From positions 32,001 through 96,000 of the IMG/VR virus record IMGVR_UViG_3300045988_011313: DNA of 64,000 bases; one strand, 5' to 3'. This DNA is from a virus. Under the pieces are notes generated by a model that was not told where the DNA came from, did not search any database, and saw nothing but the letters and a program-made list of their open reading frames with translations. The translations under genes and the position numbers were made by a program. Shown here piece by piece: positions 25,078-32,668 of this stretch. How positions within the stretch are numbered: position 1 is the first letter of the stretch; every line of letters starts with the position of its first letter.

Positions 25078-26034
25078 ATGAAGAAGACAAATTTTGCATT
25101 TATGGCATTTGCTGCTGGTAAAGTATCTACTGAAGGCAATGCAGTAAAGAGATATACAGGTGTAGCTCCTGTATTTGTTTTGGCTGTAAACCCTAACAAA
25201 GCAGAGCTTGAGAAGTTGTATGATACCCAACTTGAAAATGACCCTGAATATCTGGGTGAAGTTGAGGTAGGTGAGGACAAGCACAAGGTACAGAGTGTCA
25301 GACTTGACTTCATTGTTAAGACTGATGCTGAGAAGTGTGGTGGTATTGAGTTTACTACCAAAATAGCTTTCTTCATCAGAAAGGAATACAGATACAATAA
25401 AGACCATACTAAGGTACAGGTAATTGATAAGTATGGTAGAACTGCTTGGGTTACTATAGAGCAGGCTAAGGCACATGAAATTCCTGTATATAAGAATGGT
25501 CCTGCCAATATTGATAAGGGCTATAGACCTGCTTATCAAGGAGAGGAAGAGCTTACTAACTTCATCAAGGCATACCTCAACATTCCTAATGTAATGAAGT
25601 ATGTCAATAATACTTGGGTTATGGTAGACAAACCTGAGGACTGTGAAGCAAGACTTGAGAGCATTGATGAGTACTTCAAGGGCAATTTCAAGGAGCTGAG
25701 AGATGTTATTGCATTGCAGCCTAATAACAAGGTTAAGGTATTGTTTGGTGTAAGAACCACTGATGATAACAAGCAGTATCAGGCTGTTTATAATCAGATG
25801 TTCTTGAAGAACAATATCACTGACTATAGTAAGTTGGATGCAGACTTGCAGGAAAGAAAGGCTGCTGGTTCATATCCTACTACTGAGTTTACTGTAGGTG
25901 ATAAGGTTACTGTAGGGAACTTGAAGGAGTATAATGTAGAATCTACAGACCTCAGCAGCTCTGGTGCATCAGGTGATGTACCTTTCCCTCCTGGCAATGC
26001 TGATGGAGGTACACCTTGGAATTTTGGTAAGTAG
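25078..26034 (+). CDS. Hypothetical protein (318 aa); position suggests a single-stranded DNA-binding protein
   Basis: This call rests on gene context only (between the ATPase and the primase). I could verify no motif. Confidence 0.3.
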   Translation: MKKTNFAFMAFAAGKVSTEGNAVKRYTGVAPVFVLAVNPNKAELEKLYDTQLENDPEYLGEVEVGEDKHKVQSVRLDFIVKTDAEKCGGIEFTTKIAFFIRKEYRYNKDHTKVQVIDKYGRTAWVTIEQAKAHEIPVYKNGPANIDKGYRPAYQGEEELTNFIKAYLNIPNVMKYVNNTWVMVDKPEDCEARLESIDEYFKGNFKELRDVIALQPNNKVKVLFGVRTTDDNKQYQAVYNQMFLKNNITDYSKLDADLQERKAAGSYPTTEFTVGDKVTVGNLKEYNVESTDLSSSGASGDVPFPPGNADGGTPWNFGK

Positions 26035-26051: not shown

Positions 26052-27092
26052 ATGGCATTCAGCAAAGGTAAATCTTCTGTGAGCCTTGATGATATTCTAA
26101 GTAAAGTGACAGAGGCAGACATCCTGTCACATTACTTGGGAGTCACAGAGGTTCCGTGCATAATCAATAGTCCTCTTAGACAGGATAGGAGACCCTCCTT
26201 TGGTCTTTACTCTTCTGATGGGATAAGGATATTTTATATAGACTTAGCCACAAAGGATAGTGGGGGTCTGTTTGACCTTCTTGGTAAAATGTGGAATTGT
26301 GGTTTTAAGGAGGTCTTAAGTAAAATTAATAATGACATTTCAAAGTTCTGTGGTGGTGCCAGTATTCATTCATACACTCCCTGTGCTGTAAGAAGTACAA
26401 ATAGTTACAACAAAGATACAGACTTGCAGTGCAAAGTCAGAGATTGGAGAGATTATGATATTGAATATTGGGCATCCTATGGTATAACTTTGGAATGGCT
26501 CAAGTATGCAGAGGTTTACCCTATATCTCATAAGATTGTCATAAAAGATGGTCATAGATATGTGTTTGGGGCTGATAAATATGCCTATGCTTATGTAGAA
26601 CACAAGGAAGGTAAGGTTACTCTAAAGATATACCAGCCTTTCAATAAAGCTGGTTATAAGTGGAGTAACAAGCATGACAATTCTGTAGTAAGCTTATGGA
26701 CTAAAGTACCTGAATATGGGGAACAGATTTGCATTTGTTCTTCACTGAAGGATGCCTTATGTCTATGGGCTAACACAGGTATTCCATCTCTTGCCATTCA
26801 AGGTGAGGGGTATAGGATGAGTGATACTGCAATTAGTGAGCTGAAAAGAAGATATAAACAAGTCTTCATTTGCTTGGATAATGATGAGCCAGGATTAAAG
26901 GATGCTCAGAAATTATCTGAAGAAACAGGTTTTACTAATGTAGTATTACCACCCTTTAATGAAGGGAAAGATATTAGTGACTTGATGAAAGCTAAGGGCA
27001 AAGATGAGTTCCTTAGAATAATCAAGCCTTTATTTGACTCTTCAAGACAAGAGGACAATGATTGGAATGATTTGCCCTTTTGTATAGATTAA
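26052..27092 (+). CDS. DNA primase (Toprim domain) (346 aa)
   Basis: The N-terminal SPLRQDRRPSFGLY resembles the primase Zn-finger region. Toprim acidic motifs: ICICSSLKDA...QGEGY...FICLDNDEPG. Confidence 0.6.
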   Translation: MAFSKGKSSVSLDDILSKVTEADILSHYLGVTEVPCIINSPLRQDRRPSFGLYSSDGIRIFYIDLATKDSGGLFDLLGKMWNCGFKEVLSKINNDISKFCGGASIHSYTPCAVRSTNSYNKDTDLQCKVRDWRDYDIEYWASYGITLEWLKYAEVYPISHKIVIKDGHRYVFGADKYAYAYVEHKEGKVTLKIYQPFNKAGYKWSNKHDNSVVSLWTKVPEYGEQICICSSLKDALCLWANTGIPSLAIQGEGYRMSDTAISELKRRYKQVFICLDNDEPGLKDAQKLSEETGFTNVVLPPFNEGKDISDLMKAKGKDEFLRIIKPLFDSSRQEDNDWNDLPFCID

Positions 27093-27138: not shown

Positions 27139-27831
27139 ATGGAAGCAAGAAAAATTACAGTCGTACAGACTAAGAATCAGAAAAAGAGTGTTATTATGTC
27201 AGCAGCCACAACCCTTGCTGAGTTGAAAAGTGACTTGAGAGACAATGGCATTGACTATGATGGTATGACCTTCTTTGAAGGCACATCAAAGGTTGAATTG
27301 AAGAATGATACTTCTGTTCTTCCTCATGATGTTCCTTACAAGGGAACTGTCACCAATGAGTTGGTTTTCATGCTTACTAACACTAACAAGAAAATCAGAA
27401 GTGGTGCTACTACAATGAGCAGAGCTGAGGTATACAGTGCTATCAAATCTATGGGTTTGCAGGATGCTTGTGTAGAGAAGTTTGGCAAGAACTTCACTAT
27501 GTGTAAGACTGCTGACCTTATTGCATTAGTACAGAGCAATGGTGCTTCAAAGCCTGCTCCTGCTACTCCTAAAGCTGAGGCTAAGGCTGAGGCTAAGGTA
27601 GAAGCACCTGCAAGTAGTGATGGTGAGTGTGTTGATACTGTAGCAAGAGCTGCTATTAGTAAGTTGGTGGAAATTCTTGAGGACAATGGCACAATCGAGG
27701 ATTATGAGAAAAAGGAATTGATTGGCATTCTTGGGGGTAAGGTTGCAGTAAGTGCTGAACCTTCTGGGGAGCCTTCTCCTTATTCTGATGATGAGATTGG
27801 TGATATGTTCGCAGAAATGGGTGTCAATTAA
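27139..27831 (+). CDS. Hypothetical protein (230 aa): N-terminal beta-grasp-like segment, KAEA repeat linker and acidic tail
   Basis: Residues 5-90 show a ubiquitin-like alternation of secondary structure (KITVVQT..KKSVIMSA..TLAELKSDLRDNGI..MTFFEG..ELVFMLT..KKIRSG). This is inferred from the sequence pattern only. Confidence 0.6.
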   Translation: MEARKITVVQTKNQKKSVIMSAATTLAELKSDLRDNGIDYDGMTFFEGTSKVELKNDTSVLPHDVPYKGTVTNELVFMLTNTNKKIRSGATTMSRAEVYSAIKSMGLQDACVEKFGKNFTMCKTADLIALVQSNGASKPAPATPKAEAKAEAKVEAPASSDGECVDTVARAAISKLVEILEDNGTIEDYEKKELIGILGGKVAVSAEPSGEPSPYSDDEIGDMFAEMGVN

Positions 27832-27845
27832 CAAAAGTAAGTAAC

Positions 27846-27889
27846 AGTAGGTAAGGAGGTTAGGAATGCCCCCTTACCTACTTTTTTTT
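27846..27889 (+). terminator. Intrinsic terminator
   Basis: 11-bp stem AGTAGGTAAGG/CCTTACCTACT followed by T8. Confidence 0.6.
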
Positions 27890-27897
27890 ACAGTAAT

Positions 27898-29190
27898 ATG
27901 AGTGGAGAAACAATTAAATTAATTGAGGAGGGGATAGAGAAACTATATAACTCCTTAATGGACAAGCCACTTCGAGTATTAGACATATTCAATGATTTCT
28001 TTGGAGAGGATAAAGTTGATATGCAAGGGTATTGGAGTTTGGACAAGTTCAAACTTTGGATGTATACAGAGCCTTTATCTACTTATATCTCTGTTGGTAA
28101 TATAGACAGGAATGACTGGAATATATATGAAACACAGGCTATTACTGATTTACCTGAAGACCAAGTAGGAAAGGCTGTTAATATGCTTACAAGTACTATG
28201 GCAAAAGAAAGAATTGGTAATGCTAAGTTCAGTAACATATTCATTCTTGTACATTTTCCTCATGTAAGAGTAACTAATGAGCATGATAGATTTGTGGATA
28301 TTAACCATCTGTGGGCTAAGGTGAAAGTAATGTATGATGGCACATTGAATGGTGGATTTACACTTAATAGGTCAGAATATACTATGCTTCACATTAGTAG
28401 TGGATATATGCACAGTCATATCAGTAGTATTCCTAAAGGTGACTTTACCCGTTTTCAGAATCCTTGCACAGGCAGTGGTCCTATTAATGGTACTATTGGT
28501 GCCCTCAATAGGGACTATGATGAGGATATGTGGAATATGTTCTGTCTTGAGCTAAGTAAGTATGTAACTGTAGAGTCCGTTGCTGGCAGACCTTATAAAT
28601 ATTTGGAAAAGTTAGGTACCAATGATATGGAAATAGGTATAGATAGATTCATTACATATCTGTCTCCTGATTACCATGGAAATGTCATTACTCCTAATAA
28701 ATTCAAGGAGTTTGTAAGGTACTTTATTAGCACTAAGAAGCTCAAATTTAACTATGTCAATGGTTCTTATTCTATTGGAATGTCACTTATTGAATTTATT
28801 GTACTCATCAGTAATGAGTTCATTAAATGGTATAATGACCAGTTCAATAAAGAGGAATTAACTATTAAGTTTGCAGACTTGAAGAGACATGGTATCTTGA
28901 AAGAGTGCATCATAGACAATGAAAAGATTTACTATGATAGGAGCAGGGATAATGTAAACAACTATGCTCAGTATATAGGCAAGAAAGTCTGTGTATTCAA
29001 GGGAAGAGAGATAACTGTAGATATTACAGATATTGCAGAAGTGAAGAATGAGAACAAGAGTATAATTCTTAATACTCATACTGCATTATACATATTAACA
29101 ACAATACTCAAAGTATTAAATTACAGGTATGGAAGAAACAAAGCAACCCACGAAGGTAATCAGCTTGGTACAGAAGTCAGGTATCTATAA
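27898..29190 (+). CDS. Hypothetical protein (430 aa), first gene of the JAB/E1 cassette
   Basis: ORF track. The next ORF overlaps its 3' end by 62 nt. It contains His/Cys-containing stretches (FPHVRV, YMHSHISS, NPCTGSG) that I cannot assign. Confidence 0.75.
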   Translation: MSGETIKLIEEGIEKLYNSLMDKPLRVLDIFNDFFGEDKVDMQGYWSLDKFKLWMYTEPLSTYISVGNIDRNDWNIYETQAITDLPEDQVGKAVNMLTSTMAKERIGNAKFSNIFILVHFPHVRVTNEHDRFVDINHLWAKVKVMYDGTLNGGFTLNRSEYTMLHISSGYMHSHISSIPKGDFTRFQNPCTGSGPINGTIGALNRDYDEDMWNMFCLELSKYVTVESVAGRPYKYLEKLGTNDMEIGIDRFITYLSPDYHGNVITPNKFKEFVRYFISTKKLKFNYVNGSYSIGMSLIEFIVLISNEFIKWYNDQFNKEELTIKFADLKRHGILKECIIDNEKIYYDRSRDNVNNYAQYIGKKVCVFKGREITVDITDIAEVKNENKSIILNTHTALYILTTILKVLNYRYGRNKATHEGNQLGTEVRYL

Positions 29191-30337
29191 TTATAAGCTG
29201 ATTATTCCAGCAGAAGTGGAAAGAAAGATAAGGTTTACCTGTCAGAAGGTATGGAATACTGAATGGTCAGGTACATTGTTCTTTACACATGAAGGCTCAT
29301 TTGAGAATAATGACCTTGTGATAAGATGTGTGGACATTTATATCATGGATATTGGAACTCAAGCCTATACAGAGTTTGATATGAATCCTGATGTAATATC
29401 CTACATGTGTGAAAATCCTGAATTGCTAGATTGTCAGATGGGTCTTATACATTCCCATAACAATATGAGTACTTTCTTTAGTGGAACAGATACTGCTACT
29501 CTAAAGGAAGAAGGCAGGGATAGAAACAATTTTGTGTCTCTTATTGTGAATAATGCAGGTTCCTATACTGCTGCAATTACAAGGAGAGTCAAGTCAAAGC
29601 AGGTCAGGGAGTCTGTATCTTATGAGTTCTTTGGTGATGGTGAAAAACAGGACACTAAGGAATATGTAAGTGATGCAGATGAGATTGAGTGGTTCTATCT
29701 TAAAATAGAGAAAGAAGATGAGAATTATTCCTTTCCAGACATGGCAGCAAGACTTGAGGAAATCAAACAGGCTAAAGCAGAGAAAGCCAAGAAAGTGCAG
29801 ACACCTGTATATCAAAGTGGCTATAAGCATACTATTGCTAATTCCCATGATACAAAGGCAGGTCCAGCAAATCTTGTCAAGAAGGAAGCTGATAAGCCTA
29901 AGGTAGACCAGCCATCCCTCTTTGACAATGTGGATGATTTGCCATTTGATGATAACTATAGTCTGCCTTATGGTCAGGTGACACTTGATAAAGTCACTTT
30001 GAAATCTCTTGTACTCCAATTGGTTACAGGCAGTATTCTTATTTCTAATGATAGTAAGATTGATATTCCTAAATGGGCTAAGTCAATGTCTACATTGTAT
30101 GAAAAGAGATTTGGCAAGGGTGAAGAAGGCATGGAAAATTTCAAAATGTGGGCAGATACCTATACAGAATATCTGACATGGTATGTGACAGATGAGAAAT
30201 TAGAAAAGCTTGGCTTTGATGAAACAGAAATTTGTGCTATTTGTGCCCATGATATGATAGAGGAGCTTACAAAACTTCCTGAAAATGATTATATCAAAGG
30301 GTATATTGATGCACTTCAAAAATACTTAATATTATGA
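29129..30337 (+). CDS. JAB/MPN+ (JAMM) metalloisopeptidase-domain protein (402 aa)
   Basis: Complete JAMM motif: upstream Glu (NTEWSG), then HSHNNMSTFFSGTD = H-x-H-x7-S-x2-D (nt 29450-29491). Confidence 0.7.
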   Translation: MEETKQPTKVISLVQKSGIYNYKLIIPAEVERKIRFTCQKVWNTEWSGTLFFTHEGSFENNDLVIRCVDIYIMDIGTQAYTEFDMNPDVISYMCENPELLDCQMGLIHSHNNMSTFFSGTDTATLKEEGRDRNNFVSLIVNNAGSYTAAITRRVKSKQVRESVSYEFFGDGEKQDTKEYVSDADEIEWFYLKIEKEDENYSFPDMAARLEEIKQAKAEKAKKVQTPVYQSGYKHTIANSHDTKAGPANLVKKEADKPKVDQPSLFDNVDDLPFDDNYSLPYGQVTLDKVTLKSLVLQLVTGSILISNDSKIDIPKWAKSMSTLYEKRFGKGEEGMENFKMWADTYTEYLTWYVTDEKLEKLGFDETEICAICAHDMIEELTKLPENDYIKGYIDALQKYLIL

Positions 30338-31230
30338 ATGAAGAAGTAACAATTTCACCAGAAATAATTGACAGGTATCTTGCAGGGGTACCTATCCCTG
30401 TACCTGTAGAGGATGGTGACAGCATTAGCTTTGAACTTTCAGAAGAAGAACAGGCTATTCTTGACCAAGCTGTAGAAGATGCACATCAGGAAATACCATC
30501 AAACTCTGCAACTTTGCTTGTAGATGAAACTACAAGTAGGTTTAGTTCTGCCATTTGGTATGAGAACATTCAGAAGAAAACTGTCATTTTGGCAGGTGTA
30601 GGTGGCATTGGTAGTTATGTAGGCTTCTTATTGGCAAGGATGAAGCCAGCTTCTATGTTTATCTATGATAATGACATAGTAGAAGCTGTCAATATGTCAG
30701 GTCAGTTGTATGGTCAGTCTGATTTAGGTAGGTCTAAAGTATCTGCACTGGCTGAGATGATTAGAAACTATGCTAACTATAGTAGTGTCTTTGCAATAAA
30801 TGAAAGATTCACTGATGAATCTGAAGCATCAGACATTATGATTTGTGGCTTTGATAATATGGCAGCAAGAAAACTTTTCTTTAATAAATGGGTAAATCAT
30901 GTTCAATCCAAACCAGAGGAGGAAAGGAAGAATTGCCTGTTCATTGATGGTAGGTTGGCAGCAGAGGAGTTTCAGGTATTGTGTATTAAGGGAGATGATG
31001 AGTATAACATCAATAGGTACAATAATGAGTTCCTATTCTCTGATGCAGAAGCTGATGAGACTGTCTGCTCCTATAAACAAACTACCTTCTGTGCAAATAT
31101 GATTGCATCCTATATGGTCAATCTGTTTGTGAACTTTTGTGCTAATCAGTGTGAGCCTCTCATTGACAGAGACTTGCCATTCCTTACCACATATAATGCA
31201 GAGACAATGTATCTTAAAACTGAAGTATAA
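30334..31230 (+). CDS. ThiF/MoeB/E1-like adenylyltransferase (298 aa)
   Basis: Rossmann motif ILAGVGGIGS (30595-30615), DNDIVEAVNMSGQ, GRSKV, FDNMAARK. These correspond to the E1 superfamily nucleotide-binding motifs. Confidence 0.7.
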   Translation: MNEEVTISPEIIDRYLAGVPIPVPVEDGDSISFELSEEEQAILDQAVEDAHQEIPSNSATLLVDETTSRFSSAIWYENIQKKTVILAGVGGIGSYVGFLLARMKPASMFIYDNDIVEAVNMSGQLYGQSDLGRSKVSALAEMIRNYANYSSVFAINERFTDESEASDIMICGFDNMAARKLFFNKWVNHVQSKPEEERKNCLFIDGRLAAEEFQVLCIKGDDEYNINRYNNEFLFSDAEADETVCSYKQTTFCANMIASYMVNLFVNFCANQCEPLIDRDLPFLTTYNAETMYLKTEV

Positions 31231-31994
31231 TGGAATTTAGCCAAAGATTTGTATATAGTGCTATAGGAGTCTTCAATAGTAGTGATACCAATGGTGTAGC
31301 TTGGCTTAGGAGTGAGTTATCTCTTGATAGTAACAATGTATTTAGTAGAAGCCTTGTTGTTGAAGTAGATGATAATGAGGTAGAGATACCTGTGATTGCA
31401 AGAGAACACTTTGAGGGTTTAGTGTCAGAGAAGATAGACCACCCATTAGCTGTAGGAACCAAGAGGATAATACTGCCATTGTATGATAATGCACCAAGTC
31501 AGGAGAGAAGAACTTTTGATAGTATCATAAAGCAGTTGTTTACTAATGTAAGATGTCATGAAAGATTGCAGAAGATAACTACCAACAGGGGTGAAGTGTA
31601 TTATGGTGGCAAAGGTATTATCTTTGATGAAAGCTATACCCCATTGCTATTATGTACATTAACTGCAAGAAAGGTACATACAGAAGAAGGTGGCAATAGT
31701 ATGGTCTATTATAGACCTGTATGCCATGTTAGCCCTAAAGTATTCTTAGAGTCTGACAAGTTGATTAACAAAGGTATTATTAAGAAACTTATTCCTATCT
31801 ATACAAGTAGAGAGGTAAGTCTTCCTAATTACAATTTTGATGTCAATCCAGAGAGTAAAAAGGTGAAAGTTGTAGTGGATAATTTTGATAAGTTCTTTAT
31901 AGAGCCTATCAAGCCTACTCCATCTGCCACTACTAATGATGCACTGAATGAATGCCTTATTGACAATATGGATGACATAATGATGTTGATATGA
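31230..31994 (+). CDS. Hypothetical protein (254 aa), last gene of the JAB/E1 cassette
   Basis: ORF track. The start overlaps the E1 stop (TAATG), and the stop overlaps the ung start (ATGA). Confidence 0.75.
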   Translation: MEFSQRFVYSAIGVFNSSDTNGVAWLRSELSLDSNNVFSRSLVVEVDDNEVEIPVIAREHFEGLVSEKIDHPLAVGTKRIILPLYDNAPSQERRTFDSIIKQLFTNVRCHERLQKITTNRGEVYYGGKGIIFDESYTPLLLCTLTARKVHTEEGGNSMVYYRPVCHVSPKVFLESDKLINKGIIKKLIPIYTSREVSLPNYNFDVNPESKKVKVVVDNFDKFFIEPIKPTPSATTNDALNECLIDNMDDIMMLI

Positions 31995-32668
31995 CATTAG
32001 ATGAATACTTTGGAGATTGGATGAAAGTAATTGATAGGGCAGAGCTAAACAATGTAATGGCTAAGGTTGGACAGGAATATAGGAGGAAGCCTCTATGTCC
32101 TGCCCAATCTGATGTGTTCAGAGCATTTGAGCTTTGTCCTCTCAAGGACTTAAAAGTAGTTATGTTAGGTCAAGACCCCTATCCACAAAAGGGAGTTGCA
32201 ACTGGCATACTTTTTGGTAACAAGAAGGAGGTTGATGAGGATAACTTGTCTCCTTCATTAAATGTTGTTAAAGAAGCAGCCATTAATTTTGAGATTCCAC
32301 ATTATTGTATTACCTTTGACCAAACTTTAGAGAGTTGGGCTAAACAAGGAATACTAATGATAAACTCAGCTTTGACTGTGGAGATGAACAGGATAGGCTC
32401 CCATGTGATGATGTGGAGACCTTTCATAGCTAAACTGTTGAAAAACCTGTCTGAATATGACACAGCCATAGTATATGTGCTATTTGGCAGACAGGCTCAG
32501 ACTTTCAAACCTTATATCAATAGTAGATTCAATCACATTATAGAGATTGAACATCCTGCATACTTTGCAAGGAGTGGCACTAAGATGCCACACCAACTAT
32601 TTATTGATATAAGTAATAGAGTAAAAGGAATTTATGGTGTACCAATAAAATGGTACGAAGAGTATTAA
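31991..32668 (+). CDS. ung: Uracil-DNA glycosylase, family 1-like (225 aa)
   Basis: Water-activating loop VVMLGQDPYP, later IEHPAYFARSG (HPSP-loop equivalent), and an MINSALTV segment. Confidence 0.75.
   Translation: MTLDEYFGDWMKVIDRAELNNVMAKVGQEYRRKPLCPAQSDVFRAFELCPLKDLKVVMLGQDPYPQKGVATGILFGNKKEVDEDNLSPSLNVVKEAAINFEIPHYCITFDQTLESWAKQGILMINSALTVEMNRIGSHVMMWRPFIAKLLKNLSEYDTAIVYVLFGRQAQTFKPYINSRFNHIIEIEHPAYFARSGTKMPHQLFIDISNRVKGIYGVPIKWYEEY

What the first reader, a model, noticed from the sequence alone, without database searches (positions are those of the whole stretch)
27139..31994. Phage-borne JAB/MPN+ and ThiF/E1-like cassette: candidate ubiquitin-like conjugation or deconjugation system embedded in the replication module
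Four ORFs (27898-31994) are translationally coupled: a 62-nt overlap at 29129, ATGA at 30334, TAATG at 31230, and ATGA into ung at 31991. ORF2 carries a complete JAMM site (E...HSHNNMSTFFSGTD). ORF3 has the E1/ThiF nucleotide-binding motifs (GVGGIGS, DNDIVEAVNMSGQ, GRSKV, DNMAAR). The flanking 430-aa and 254-aa ORFs have no motif I can name, so they are candidates for an E2-like enzyme, an adaptor or a target. The ORF just upstream (27139-27831) begins with a roughly 90-aa ubiquitin-like beta-grasp pattern ending KKIRSG, but an intrinsic terminator separates it from the cassette. E1+JAB pairs define bacterial Ubl systems such as CBASS Cap2/Cap3, the Bil/ISG15-like systems and sulfur-carrier systems. 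In a lytic crAss-like phage such a cassette could be a counter-defence or a virion or replisome modification system.
Basis: partly seen in the sequence, partly recalled or inferred. Interest (0 to 1): 0.85.

Follow-up and report, generated by a model that had tools for sequence, protein, structure and literature searches.

The report
Ubiquitin-like tagging cassette in crAss-like phages
Next to its DNA-replication genes, this crAss-like gut phage carries a strictly conserved five-gene block that looks like a phage-owned protein-tagging system, a machinery so far studied in bacteria only as a defence against phages: it encodes a small ubiquitin-like protein, an enzyme that would activate it, a protease that would trim or remove it, and two proteins of unknown kind.

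Summary
ORFs, overlaps, JAMM motif, E1 motifs and the hairpin plus T8 after the upstream ORF all sit at the stated coordinates.

The block ORF0, ORF1, JAB, E1 is collinear in 160 of 171 related viral loci. It occurs in 74 GenBank phages, all from Bacteroidota hosts or gut samples, and in no plasmid.

- **ORF0** starts with a ~76-89 aa domain ending in an invariant Gly (K-[S/A/G]-G). In 13 of 71 relatives the gene stops 1-5 residues after that Gly and the tail is a separate gene. That is ubiquitin-precursor logic.
- **E1** keeps all adenylation residues plus an invariant Cys. Its best solved relative is UBA5.
- **JAB** has an intact E…HxHx7Sx2D site.
- **ORF1** sits where the E2 sits in the bacterial PRTRC/"6d" operon and has invariant His and Cys. 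A confident AlphaFold model (pLDDT 84.5) has no neighbour in the PDB, so an E2 fold is not shown.
- **ORF4** evolves fast and has no known relatives.

No paper in the searched library links crAss-like phages to such a system. The biochemistry and the target are inferred, not shown. The β-grasp fold of ORF0 was not modelled.

The parts
27139..27405 (+). ORF0 N-terminal domain (residues 1-89): candidate ubiquitin-like modifier ending in ...KKIRSG89
   Evidence: Gly89 is invariant in 51 diverse homologues and is the only invariant column (A9); 72 of 74 in the wider set. Thirteen of 71 homologues are stand-alone proteins, twelve of 75-95 aa and one first-ATG call of 106 aa, ending 1-5 residues after this Gly. 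A crude propensity profile gives β-(β)-α-β-β over ~77 columns, as it does for ubiquitin. The fold was not modelled. No Pfam or PDB sequence match.
27406..27831 (+). ORF0 C-terminal part: a short region inferred from its sequence pattern to be helix-linker-helix, a low-complexity linker, and an acidic helical tail ending ...DEIGDMFAEMGVN. Predicted to be released by cleavage after Gly89.
   Evidence: Hypervariable in length and sequence among relatives. In relatives with a stand-alone Ubl, a separate 45-105 aa acidic ORF lies between the Ubl gene and ORF1, and several of these end with the same kind of C-terminal motif.
27846..27890 (+). Hairpin plus T8: terminator- or attenuator-like element between the Ubl gene and the enzyme genes
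   Evidence: dG -21.3 kcal/mol, z -3.8. A hairpin plus T-run at the same place but with unrelated sequence occurs in about 40 of 74 de-duplicated loci.
27898..29190 (+). ORF1 (430 aa): orphan protein with an invariant His/Cys centre (H174, C190, G192, E226; near-invariant N127, R158, Y170, S173, S227, G230, P232). Proposed thioester carrier or ligase, an E2 analogue by position.
   Evidence: Invariant residues in 75 sequences (A5). Family of 3,267 clusters at 50% identity. No Pfam hit in any of 75 members and no PDB sequence hit. AlphaFold pLDDT 84.5 but best Foldseek PDB E = 1.2. BFVD hits are only uncharacterised crAss-like proteins. Same position as Prok-E2_D in PRTRC.
28276..28593 (+). Conserved core of ORF1 (residues 127-232), including the C190 codon at 28465-28467
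29129..30337 (+). JAB/MPN+ metalloprotease (402 aa) with a conserved C-terminal helical domain of unknown function; catalytic core residues 45-121 (nt 29261-29491)
   Evidence: E45, H108, H110, S118 and D121 are invariant. Pfam Prok-JAB 4e-4. Profile hits to CSN5, P. furiosus JAMM1 and Rpn11-like at E 0.015-0.6. hhalign against PRTRC protein A gives 80% probability.
30334..31230 (+). Minimal E1/ThiF-family adenylating enzyme (298 aa); Rossmann core residues 76-219 (nt 30559-30990); invariant Cys245 (nt 31066-31068)
   Evidence: Pfam ThiF 8e-18. Invariant R, GxGxxG, D, N, Q, K, DNM, R, DGR and C. Best PDB relatives are UBA5 (7.8e-15), MccB, PaaA, MoeB and Uba1. hhalign against PRTRC ThiF gives 96.6%. 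All NCBIfam ThiF/MoeB hits are far below their cut-offs.
31230..31994 (+). ORF4 (254 aa): fast-evolving fifth component, function unknown (candidate specificity factor or target)
   Evidence: An ORF starts directly after the E1 gene in 67 of 72 de-duplicated loci. Three sequence clusters (44 loci) are linked by hhalign at 96.5% and 93.0%. No Pfam or PDB match for 43 members.
26052..27092 (+). Context: DnaG-type primase immediately upstream
   Evidence: Toprim domains and PHROG DNA primase at 5e-42.
31991..32668 (+). Context: uracil-DNA glycosylase, start overlapping the ORF4 stop (ATGA)
   Evidence: Pfam UDG 3.9e-12.

Best explanation
The block 27139-31994 is a phage-encoded ubiquitin-like (Ubl) activation and conjugation module of five genes.

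Proposed mechanism (steps 1-5 are inferred; only the sequence features behind them are shown):
1. ORF0 is made as a precursor: a ~89-aa Ubl domain fused to a variable acidic tail. A hairpin plus T-run after ORF0 lets it be expressed more strongly than the enzymes.
2. The JAB metalloprotease cuts after Gly89 (…K-I-R-S-G↓). This frees a C-terminal glycine, as deubiquitinases do with ubiquitin precursors.
3. The minimal, UBA5-like E1 adenylates that glycine with ATP and probably takes it onto its invariant Cys245 as a thioester.
4. The Ubl passes to the invariant Cys190 of ORF1. ORF1 occupies the E2 position of the related bacterial PRTRC/6d operon but has a fold with no solved relative.
5. The Ubl is attached to a target. 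The fast-evolving ORF4 is a candidate specificity factor or substrate. The JAB could also reverse the conjugation.

The module always lies among replication genes (primase, UDG, helicases, RNR). It is therefore most likely expressed with them and acts on replication-phase phage or host proteins. The target is unknown.
For: Shown:
- The ORFs, overlaps and motifs are present.
- The E1 adenylation residues and one Cys are invariant across about 70 diverse homologues.
- The closest solved relatives of the E1 are UBA5, MccB, PaaA, MoeB and Uba1. A sub-threshold second stretch of that match places Cys245 on the UBA5 'GVCAASLPTT' segment. From my own knowledge, that segment holds the UBA5 catalytic Cys250.
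- The JAMM site is intact and invariant. Its nearest solved relatives are Ubl isopeptidases: CSN5, JAMM1 and Rpn11-like.
- The order ORF0-ORF1-JAB-E1 is collinear in 160 of 171 loci.
- ORF1 and this E1 clade co-occur in the same 74 GenBank phage records and in no plasmid.
- The terminal Gly of the ORF0 N-domain is the only invariant column in 51 diverse sequences.
- Thirteen of 71 homologues end 1-5 residues after that Gly, with the tail encoded by a separate gene.
- The bacterial PRTRC operon has the same order: Prok_Ub … Prok-E2_D – JAB – ThiF. It gives the longest E1 match among plasmids (76% of the query), with hhalign 96.6% for the E1 and 80% for the JAB.
- ORF1 keeps an invariant His/Cys centre in 75 sequences.

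From the literature: operons that combine an E1, a JAB peptidase, an E2 and a Ubl perform protein conjugation in bacteria (PMC11601596). Operon type 6d was predicted to do so in PMC1779556.
Against: - No UBC/E2 fold was found. The ORF1 model is confident (pLDDT 84.5), yet the best Foldseek PDB hit has E = 1.2. hhalign against Prok-E2_D is not significant, at about 0.2% probability.
- The β-grasp fold of ORF0 was not modelled. Sequence and profile searches give no significant Ubl hit and no similarity to Prok_Ub.
- The modifier ends in a single Gly (S-G), not the GG of most Ubls.
- The JAB Pfam hit is below the gathering score.
- No target, no E3 and no expression or proteomic data are available.
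- The alignment of Cys245 with the UBA5 Cys rests on a sub-threshold HMMER stretch.
Confidence: 0.6

Rival explanations
1. Sulfur-carrier pathway. ORF0-N is a ThiS/MoaD/TtuB-like carrier. The E1 adenylates it to form a thiocarboxylate, which donates sulfur to a cofactor or to a modified nucleotide or DNA base. ORF1 is the sulfur-using enzyme and the JAB matures the carrier, as in CysO/Mec+ or QbsE/QbsD.
For: GenBank annotates the E1 as 'thiamine biosynthesis protein ThiF'. The best NCBIfam hits are ThiF models. JAB + E1 + carrier sets exist in sulfur-transfer pathways (PMC1779556). The block lies among nucleotide-metabolism genes such as UDG and RNR. ORF1 has an invariant Cys.
Against: The ThiF/MoeB models score 25-69 bits against cut-offs of 150-450. 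No rhodanese, ThiG, MoaE, CysM, PP-loop or cysteine-desulfurase family was detected in any of the five proteins. The carrier ends in S-G or A-G rather than G-G. The E1 sequence shows no paired CxxC motifs; from my own knowledge these are the zinc motifs of ThiF/MoeB. The best solved relative is UBA5, a protein-conjugation E1.
Confidence: 0.1
2. Counter-defence by mimicry. The JAB, and possibly the E1, act on host Ubl systems. For example they could strip Bil-type Ubl from phage proteins or interfere with type II CBASS priming, rather than running a productive phage conjugation pathway of their own.
For: Bil and type II CBASS are antiphage systems built from E1, E2 and JAB parts (PMC11601596, PMC10097602). 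PADLOC 'E1-E2' (Cap2-type) models match the E1 Rossmann region at up to 6e-13.
Against: The module brings its own strictly co-inherited modifier-like gene and two further specific proteins in 160 of 171 loci. It sits in the conserved replication block rather than in a variable accessory region. The PADLOC hits cover only the generic nucleotide-binding part of the E1. This role can coexist with the main explanation, since the target could be a defence protein.
Confidence: 0.12
3. The E1 adenylates something other than ORF0, such as a peptide C-terminus (as MccB and PaaA do) or a nucleic-acid or small-molecule carboxylate. ORF0 would then be an unrelated DNA- or protein-binding replication factor whose conserved Gly is only a domain hinge.
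For: MccB and PaaA are among the best PDB hits of the E1 (1.5e-14 and 6.5e-14). ORF0-N has no significant similarity to any Ubl family. A terminator-like hairpin separates ORF0 from the enzymes.
Against: Gene fission falls exactly at the invariant Gly, leaving 1-5 residue caps. ORF0 co-occurs strictly and collinearly with the enzymes, and the hairpin is itself a conserved feature. Pfam found no further domain in the N-terminal extension of the E1, and that extension is variable among relatives.
Confidence: 0.1
4. There is no functional unit: the genes are merely adjacent in a compact phage genome.
For: Phage genes are generally packed and overlapping.
Against: The same order recurs in 160 of 171 loci while the proteins diverge to 13-36% identity. 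ORF1 and this E1 clade have identical distributions in 50,697 phage records.
Confidence: 0.02

Closest known systems
PRTRC system, corresponding to operon type '6d' of Iyer, Burroughs & Aravind 2006 (PMC1779556): Prok_Ub, Prok-E2_D, DUF2016-JAB and a ThiF-family E1 on plasmids and conjugative elements
   Same: Same order of parts: modifier … E2-position protein – JAB – E1. It gives the longest E1 match among plasmids, covering 76% of the query. hhalign gives 96.6% for the E1 and 80% for the JAB. The E1 is small and single-domain. A rapidly diverging accessory protein is also noted for 6d (PMC1779556). The local motif H-S-[H/P]…C-x-G…P lines up between ORF1 and PRTRC protein B, though not significantly.
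   Different: There is no ParB and none of the PRTRC E/F proteins. ORF0 does not match Prok_Ub, ORF1 does not match Prok-E2_D, and the JAB lacks DUF2016. The NCBIfam PRTRC models are far below cut-off: ThiF 33.5 bits against 144.75, PRTRC_A 13.4 against 101.8. The host replicon is a virulent-type phage replication module, not a plasmid. ORF1 has no plasmid homologue at all. As far as I found, PRTRC itself has not been functionally characterised.
Bil (bacterial ISG15-like) systems, BilABCD
   Same: A separate Ubl, E2, JAB peptidase and E1. The Ubl is conjugated to lysines and no E3 is involved (PMC11601596).
   Different: [quoted passage not shown] Here the E1 has a ~230-aa core. Bil is a host antiphage defence, whereas this module is phage-encoded. 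No PADLOC model matched ORF0, ORF1, the JAB or ORF4.
Type II CBASS Cap2 (E2-E1 fusion) and Cap3 (JAB)
   Same: E1 chemistry plus a JAB that reverses it. PADLOC Cap2-type models hit the E1 Rossmann region. Cap2 structures appear among the PDB hits at about 1e-8.
   Different: Cap2 fuses the E2 and E1 and has no separate Ubl; it conjugates the C-terminus of the cGAS-like enzyme (PMC10097602). Here there is no CD-NTase and no fusion, and a dedicated modifier candidate is present.
Bub (6E/DUF6527) pathways
   Same: A JAB cleaves a precursor to release a functional Ubl: BubCD cleaves the BubAB Ubl-E2 fusion (PMC11601596). This is a precedent for the proposed processing of ORF0. It also shows that diverged E1 and E2 proteins can escape recognition.
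   Different: Bub works through oxyester intermediates, lacks catalytic cysteines and has a DUF6527 serine protease (PMC11601596). Here both the E1 and ORF1 keep an invariant Cys, and no DUF6527 family was detected.
UBA5-UFM1 (eukaryotic minimal E1)
   Same: UBA5 is the best solved sequence relative of the E1 (7.8e-15). From my own knowledge, UBA5 is a compact E1 whose catalytic Cys lies within the adenylation domain, and UFM1 matures to a single C-terminal Gly after a 2-residue cap is removed. Here the modifier ends in S-G with 1-5 residue caps.
   Different: No UFC1- or UFL1-like partners are present. Maturation would be by a JAB metalloprotease, not by the UfSP cysteine protease. Similarity covers only the N-terminal ~95 residues of the Rossmann domain.
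Archaeal SAMP/UbaA/HvJAMM1 and Thermus TtuB/TtuC systems
   Same: A small Ubl plus a MoeB-like E1 plus a JAMM protease, with no E2. P. furiosus JAMM1 is among the JAB hits. The SAMP-activating E1 model hits at 2.6e-6.
   Different: From my own knowledge, those Ubls end in GG and double as sulfur carriers. This module has two additional conserved proteins and no link to sulfur metabolism.

Membership tests
Ubl conjugation systems (E1 + Ubl + DUB ± E2) | E1 adenylation domain with intact nucleotide- and Mg-binding residues | tested here: met
   Pfam ThiF 8e-18, above its cut-off. R, GxGxxG, D, N, Q, K, D-N-M, R and D-G-R are invariant in 7 very diverse sequences and in at least 65 of 72.
Ubl conjugation systems (E1 + Ubl + DUB ± E2) | E1 catalytic cysteine for thioester formation | tested here: inconclusive
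   Cys245 (TVCSYKQTT) is invariant. It is placed on the UBA5 'GVCAASLPTT' segment only by a sub-threshold HMMER stretch. Chemistry not tested.
Ubl conjugation systems (E1 + Ubl + DUB ± E2) | JAB/MPN+ peptidase with the E…HxHx7Sx2D metal site | tested here: met
   E45, H108, H110, S118 and D121 are invariant in 9 diverse homologues. About 71-73 of 80 keep them in the wider set, the rest probably being fragments. The three-dimensional geometry was not modelled.
Ubl conjugation systems (E1 + Ubl + DUB ± E2) | Modifier with a C-terminal glycine that is exposed or can be exposed by processing | tested here: met
   Gly89 is the only invariant column in 51 sequences. Thirteen of 71 homologues end 1-5 residues after it. 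The tail is a separate gene in those loci.
Ubl conjugation systems (E1 + Ubl + DUB ± E2) | Modifier has the β-grasp fold | not tested
Only a crude propensity profile congruent with ubiquitin is available. There are no significant Pfam or PDB hits; isolated weak hits to DIX, UBXL and SAMP2 have E = 0.04-0.08.
Ubl conjugation systems (E1 + Ubl + DUB ± E2) | E2 with a UBC fold and catalytic Cys | tested here: not met
   The ORF1 model has pLDDT 84.5, but Foldseek finds no UBC, RWD, Cap2 or Bil hit and the best E is 1.2. No Prok-E2 or UQ_con Pfam hit appears in 75 members. hhalign against Prok-E2_D gives about 0.2%. An invariant Cys190 with upstream His174 exists, so ORF1 may work like an E2, but it cannot be filed as one.
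PRTRC system (NCBIfam TIGR03735-03742) | PRTRC ThiF and protein A reach the family cut-offs | tested here: not met
   PRTRC_ThiF scores 33.5 bits against 144.75. PRTRC_A scores 13.4 against 101.8.
PRTRC system (NCBIfam TIGR03735-03742) | ParB-family protein, Prok_Ub (protein C), Prok-E2_D (protein B) and DUF2016 on the JAB | tested here: not met
   None of these families was detected in the window proteins or their homologues. They are present in the reference PRTRC locus L171.
PRTRC system (NCBIfam TIGR03735-03742) | Gene order modifier … E2 – JAB – E1 | tested here: met
   Searches compared.
ThiF/MoeB sulfur-carrier adenylyltransferases | Equivalog-level similarity, and sulfur-pathway partners (ThiS/ThiG, MoaD/MoaE, rhodanese) | tested here: not met
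   Best ThiF model scores 69.3 bits against a cut-off of 159; MoeB scores 34.9 against 449. The E1 sequence shows no paired CxxC motifs. No partner families occur in the cassette.
Type II CBASS Cap2/Cap3 | E2-E1 fusion next to a CD-NTase and an effector | tested here: not met
   PADLOC E1-E2 models align only to E1 residues ~46-194. The neighbouring genes are primase, UDG and other replication genes.

The most novel reading that the evidence does not exclude
crAss-like phages of Bacteroidota, including cultured crAss001 and DAC15/17, together with the Flavobacterium FpV4 group, run a self-contained viral ubiquitin-like conjugation pathway. Its thioester carrier or ligase (the ORF1 family, more than 3,000 clusters at 50% identity) has a fold unrelated to UBC E2s. 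That would make it an independently evolved E2 analogue. The pathway would tag replication-phase phage or host proteins.
Probability: 0.3. Interest if true: 0.9.

Novelty: new variant of a known kind. Interest (0 to 1): 0.78.

Why it matters
- **Role reversal.** Prokaryotic ubiquitin-like conjugation has so far been shown only in host antiphage defence: type II CBASS, Bil and Bub. A complete-looking modifier/E1/JAB module carried as a conserved core feature of a phage lineage would put the same chemistry in the hands of the virus.
- **Abundance and tractability.** The lineage includes some of the most abundant human-gut viruses. Cultured members exist (crAss001 in B. intestinalis, DAC15/17 in B. 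thetaiotaomicron, FpV4 in F. psychrophilum), so the idea can be tested directly.
- **Annotation.** Five proteins now labelled 'hypothetical', 'metalloprotease domain' or 'thiamine biosynthesis protein' would get a working function.
- **A large orphan family.** ORF1 belongs to a family of 3,267 clusters at 50% identity, with an invariant Cys/His centre and no solved structural relative. It is a candidate new class of Ubl-transfer enzyme.
- **A mass-spectrometry handle.** The K/R-S-G end of the modifier should leave a Ser-Gly remnant on target lysines after trypsin digestion.

Tried and rejected
1. AlphaFold of ORF1 with a shallow alignment (29 sequences) gave pLDDT 46.6. Its Foldseek hits were meaningless.
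I recovered cluster representatives with the listing of cluster members, which raised pLDDT to 84.5.
3. Foldseek of the good ORF1 model found nothing in the PDB. In BFVD it found only uncharacterised crAss-like proteins. I therefore dropped the idea, based on secondary-structure order, that ORF1 is a recognisable UBC-fold E2.
4. Profile-profile comparison of ORF1 with PRTRC protein B (Prok-E2_D) was not significant. The PRTRC profile came from 90 loci fetched from genomes and metagenomes. Only the short H-S-x…C-x-G motif aligned.
5. Comparing ORF0 with Prok_Ub, and ORF4 with PRTRC E, h74, h315 and h213, showed no similarity.
6. Profile searches of ORF0, its Ubl domain, ORF1 and ORF4 against PDB sequences and Pfam gave nothing significant.
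7. The search for homologous proteins with the window ORF1 and with the ORF0 profile returned only close relatives in the 120 rows listed. The FpV4 query gave only 17 hits.
8. The Xanthomonas jumbo-phage locus with a related ThiF has no recognisable JAB, ORF1 or Ubl by Pfam. I treated it as a different system.
9. Literature searches for crAss/Crassvirales together with ThiF, JAB or ubiquitin found nothing relevant. The 2018 Yutin et al. paper could not be retrieved.
10. A programmed frameshift fusing ORF1 to the JAB across the 62-nt overlap was considered and judged unlikely. The JAB start Met is conserved and no fusion appears among the best 150 ORF1 relatives.

Full report

Yes. The ORF list reproduces the five + strand ORFs: ORF0 27139-27831, ORF1 27898-29190, JAB 29129-30337, E1 30334-31230 and ORF4 31230-31994. 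A UDG gene follows at 31991-32668 and a primase lies upstream at 26052-27092. The junctions are exactly as described: a 62-nt overlap, then ATGA, TAATG and ATGA.

The JAMM site (E45, H108, H110, S118, D121) and the E1 motifs are present. The 'terminator' after ORF0 is a 14-bp interrupted stem plus T8 at 27846-27890. It folds at -21.3 kcal/mol with z = -3.8, and none of 200 shuffles folds as well. The generic terminator scan missed it, although its 7-nt loop lies within the scan's stated limit, so I do not know why.

**2. What is the replicon?**

The region is 80% identical at the nucleotide level to bajarodcaudo virus 1. It is more distantly related to Kehishuvirus phages. The same gene block is annotated in many relatives:
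- crAss001, as Gp79-Gp74
- the PhiCrAssBcn phages
- cr126_1, cr128_1 and cr111_1
- DAC17

These are all Crassvirales, Steigviridae, Asinivirinae. The block also occurs in Dulem virus 41 and in Flavobacterium phage FpV4 as gp53-gp49.

GenBank names are only 'hypothetical', 'metalloprotease domain containing protein' and 'thiamine biosynthesis protein ThiF'. The matching PHROGs are all 'unknown function'.

**3. Conservation**

Two scans of IMG/VR with the E1 brought in 160 viral loci, with E1 identity from 36% to 100%. Iterated HMM searches over these 160 loci, ten annotated phage loci and the window itself (171 sequences) found ORF0, ORF1, JAB and E1 together in 160 of them. The order was always 0-1-2-3(-4). 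The exceptions are mostly contig ends.

In GenBank phages, ORF1 occurs in 74 records. By organism name they are the same groups that carry this E1 clade. They are Bacteroides and Flavobacterium phages and gut-derived uncultured phages. ORF1 has no match in 72,556 plasmids.

The ORF1 family comprises 3,267 clusters at 50% identity, of which 2,997 have E ≤ 1e-10. The best 150 are all 360-447 aa and none is a fusion.

**4. The parts**

*E1.* Pfam ThiF scores 8e-18. All NCBIfam ThiF, MoeB, SAMP-E1 and PRTRC models are far below their cut-offs. The adenylation residues and one Cys (Cys245, TVCSYKQTT) are invariant, even when a Xanthomonas jumbo-phage homologue is included. A profile search of PDB sequences ranks UBA5 first (7.8e-15), followed by MccB, PaaA, MoeB and Uba1. 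A sub-threshold second stretch puts Cys245 on the UBA5 'GVCAASLPTT' segment. From my own knowledge, that segment holds the UBA5 catalytic Cys250. The sequence has no paired CxxC motifs.

*JAB.* The full E…HxHx7Sx2D site is invariant. The weak PDB profile hits are all Ubl isopeptidases: CSN5, P. furiosus JAMM1 and Rpn11-like. A conserved C-terminal domain of about 120 aa has no known family.

*ORF0.* The N-terminal domain is 74-95 aa long, typically about 76. It ends in K-[S/A/G]-G, and that Gly is the only invariant column in 51 diverse sequences. It is kept in 72 of 74 sequences in the wider set.

The sequence after the Gly is hypervariable. In 13 of 71 de-duplicated homologues the protein simply stops 1-5 residues later, for example …KVKSG|F, …KNKAG|K and …KVKSG|NEKKH. 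In those loci a separate small acidic ORF lies between the Ubl gene and ORF1. Several of these ORFs end with the same kind of C-terminal motif (…R-E-[L/M/F]-G-x) as the fused tails.

This fusion or fission exactly at a conserved Gly, with short caps, is how ubiquitin, NEDD8, SUMO and UFM1 precursors are built (my own knowledge). Bub systems give a bacterial precedent for a JAB releasing a Ubl from a fusion protein (PMC11601596).

Sequence and profile searches do not link the domain to any Ubl family. A crude propensity profile is congruent with ubiquitin. The fold itself was not modelled.

*Hairpin.* A hairpin plus T-run directly after the ORF0 stop recurs in about 40 of 74 loci, with unrelated stem sequences. 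This suggests a conserved attenuator that keeps the substrate gene more highly expressed than the enzyme genes.

*ORF1.* H174, C190, G192 and E226 are invariant in 75 sequences. N127, R158, Y170, S173, S227, G230 and P232 are nearly invariant. No Pfam family matches any member and no PDB sequence matches.

The first AlphaFold run was poor (pLDDT 46.6). With 44 sequences, including cluster representatives, the model reached pLDDT 84.5 and pTM 0.65. Foldseek then found no PDB neighbour, with a best E of 1.2. In BFVD it found only uncharacterised crAss-like homologues. ORF1 therefore cannot be called an E2.

*ORF4.* An ORF follows the E1 gene directly in 67 of 72 de-duplicated loci. Its three main sequence clusters are linked by hhalign at 96.5% and 93.0%. 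It is a fast-evolving fifth component with no Pfam or PDB relatives.

**5. Closest known system**

The longest E1 match among plasmids, covering 76% of the query, is the PRTRC ThiF. The PRTRC operon reads ParB – E – C (Prok_Ub) – two ORFs – B (Prok-E2_D) – A (DUF2016 + JAB) – ThiF. That is the same order of modifier, E2, JAB and E1 as in the phage. It corresponds to operon type 6d of Iyer et al. 2006, which was predicted to be a Ub-like conjugation system on mobile elements (PMC1779556).

Profile-profile comparison supports homology for the E1 (96.6%) and the JAB (80%). It does not for ORF1 against protein B or ORF0 against protein C. Only a short H-S-[H/P]…C-x-G…P motif lines up. The phage module fails the PRTRC membership criteria and lacks ParB.

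Bil, type II CBASS and Bub are functional analogues in host defence (PMC11601596, PMC10097602). They differ in E1 architecture, in fusions and in their partners.

**6. Most likely mechanism**

The steps below are inferred from the anatomy.
1. The JAB cuts ORF0 after Gly89.
2. The E1 adenylates the freed glycine and probably forms a thioester on Cys245.
3. The Ubl is transferred to Cys190 of ORF1, the E2-position protein.
4. The Ubl is conjugated to an unknown target. ORF4 is a candidate specificity factor or substrate.
5. The JAB may also reverse the conjugation.

The constant location among primase, helicases, UDG and RNR points to expression with the replication genes. I put 0.6 on this overall reading.

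The rivals are a sulfur-carrier pathway (0.10), counter-defence mimicry acting on host Ubl systems (0.12, and compatible with the main model), and an E1 with another substrate and an unrelated ORF0 (0.10).

**7. Novelty**

The individual E1 and 'metalloprotease' annotations exist in GenBank. No paper in the searchable library connects crAss-like phages or Crassvirales with ThiF or with a ubiquitin-like system. This is a new variant of a known kind: a prokaryotic E1/JAB/Ubl module. It is phage-encoded, core to a large lineage of Bacteroidota phages, and partnered with two orphan families, one of them very large and without a solved structural relative.

**8. Limits**

There is no structure for ORF0, the JAB, the E1 or ORF4. 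There is no expression, proteomic or biochemical evidence. The loci were collected through the E1, so the co-occurrence figures describe E1-bearing contigs only.

Noticed in passing
window 27846-27890; the equivalent position in L001, L002, L083, L086-L089 and many of L091-L170: A hairpin plus T-run directly after the ORF0 stop is conserved in position but not in sequence in about 40 of 74 de-duplicated loci. This suggests a conserved attenuator between the modifier gene and the enzyme genes.
   Followed up: partly
L165, L135, L155, L124, L116, L154, L123, L107, L130, L156, L143, L151, L106 (between the ORF0 and ORF1 homologues): Where ORF0 is a short stand-alone protein, a separate 45-105 aa acidic ORF lies in the gap in most of these loci. 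Several of these ORFs, and many fused ORF0 tails, end in a motif of the form …R-E-[L/M/F]-G-x(0-2). Its role is unknown: a docking motif, or a second Gly-terminated tail.
   Followed up: partly
window 27898-29190: The ORF1 family is very large (3,267 clusters at 50% identity) and has neither a Pfam model nor a solved structural neighbour. Weak Foldseek hits (E 1-5) to winged-helix proteins such as TubR, RosR, HlyU and TnsB hint at a winged-helix-like part, but they are not significant.
   Followed up: partly
window 29129-29190 and homologous loci: The long ORF1/JAB overlap is itself conserved: 62 nt in L001, L002, L086 and L090, and 50-125 nt in L087, L088, L084 and L083. The JAB start Met is conserved, so translational coupling seems more likely than a frameshift fusion.
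   Followed up: partly
window 29970-30337 (JAB residues ~285-402): A conserved C-terminal helical domain of the JAB protein (motifs PYG.V, QLVTGS, LY..RF, AHD..EEL..LP.N.Y) has no Pfam or PDB match.
   Followed up: no
L085 (Xanthomonas phage PhiXhv-12, 137499-150065): A jumbo phage carries a related minimal ThiF-family E1 (27% identity) between DNA ligase and topoisomerase genes. It is preceded by an 892-aa orphan and followed by 70-aa and 243-aa orphans. None of them has a Pfam hit. This may be a different E1-based system that is also linked to replication genes.
   Followed up: partly
window 25078-26034: A 318-aa ORF just upstream of the primase has no Pfam or PHROG match, yet a hypothetical ORF of similar length is annotated at the same position just upstream of the primase in all annotated relatives examined.
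   Followed up: no
window ~10000 and ~58000: GC skew changes sign at about 10 kb and about 58 kb. The + strand replication block containing the cassette lies between two regions with the opposite strand bias.
   Followed up: no
window 30334-30530 (E1 residues 1-65): The N-terminal extension of the E1 is acidic and highly variable in length among relatives: absent in FpV4 and Dulem virus 41, and more than 130 residues long in Kehishuvirus. It is not part of the conserved core.
   Followed up: no
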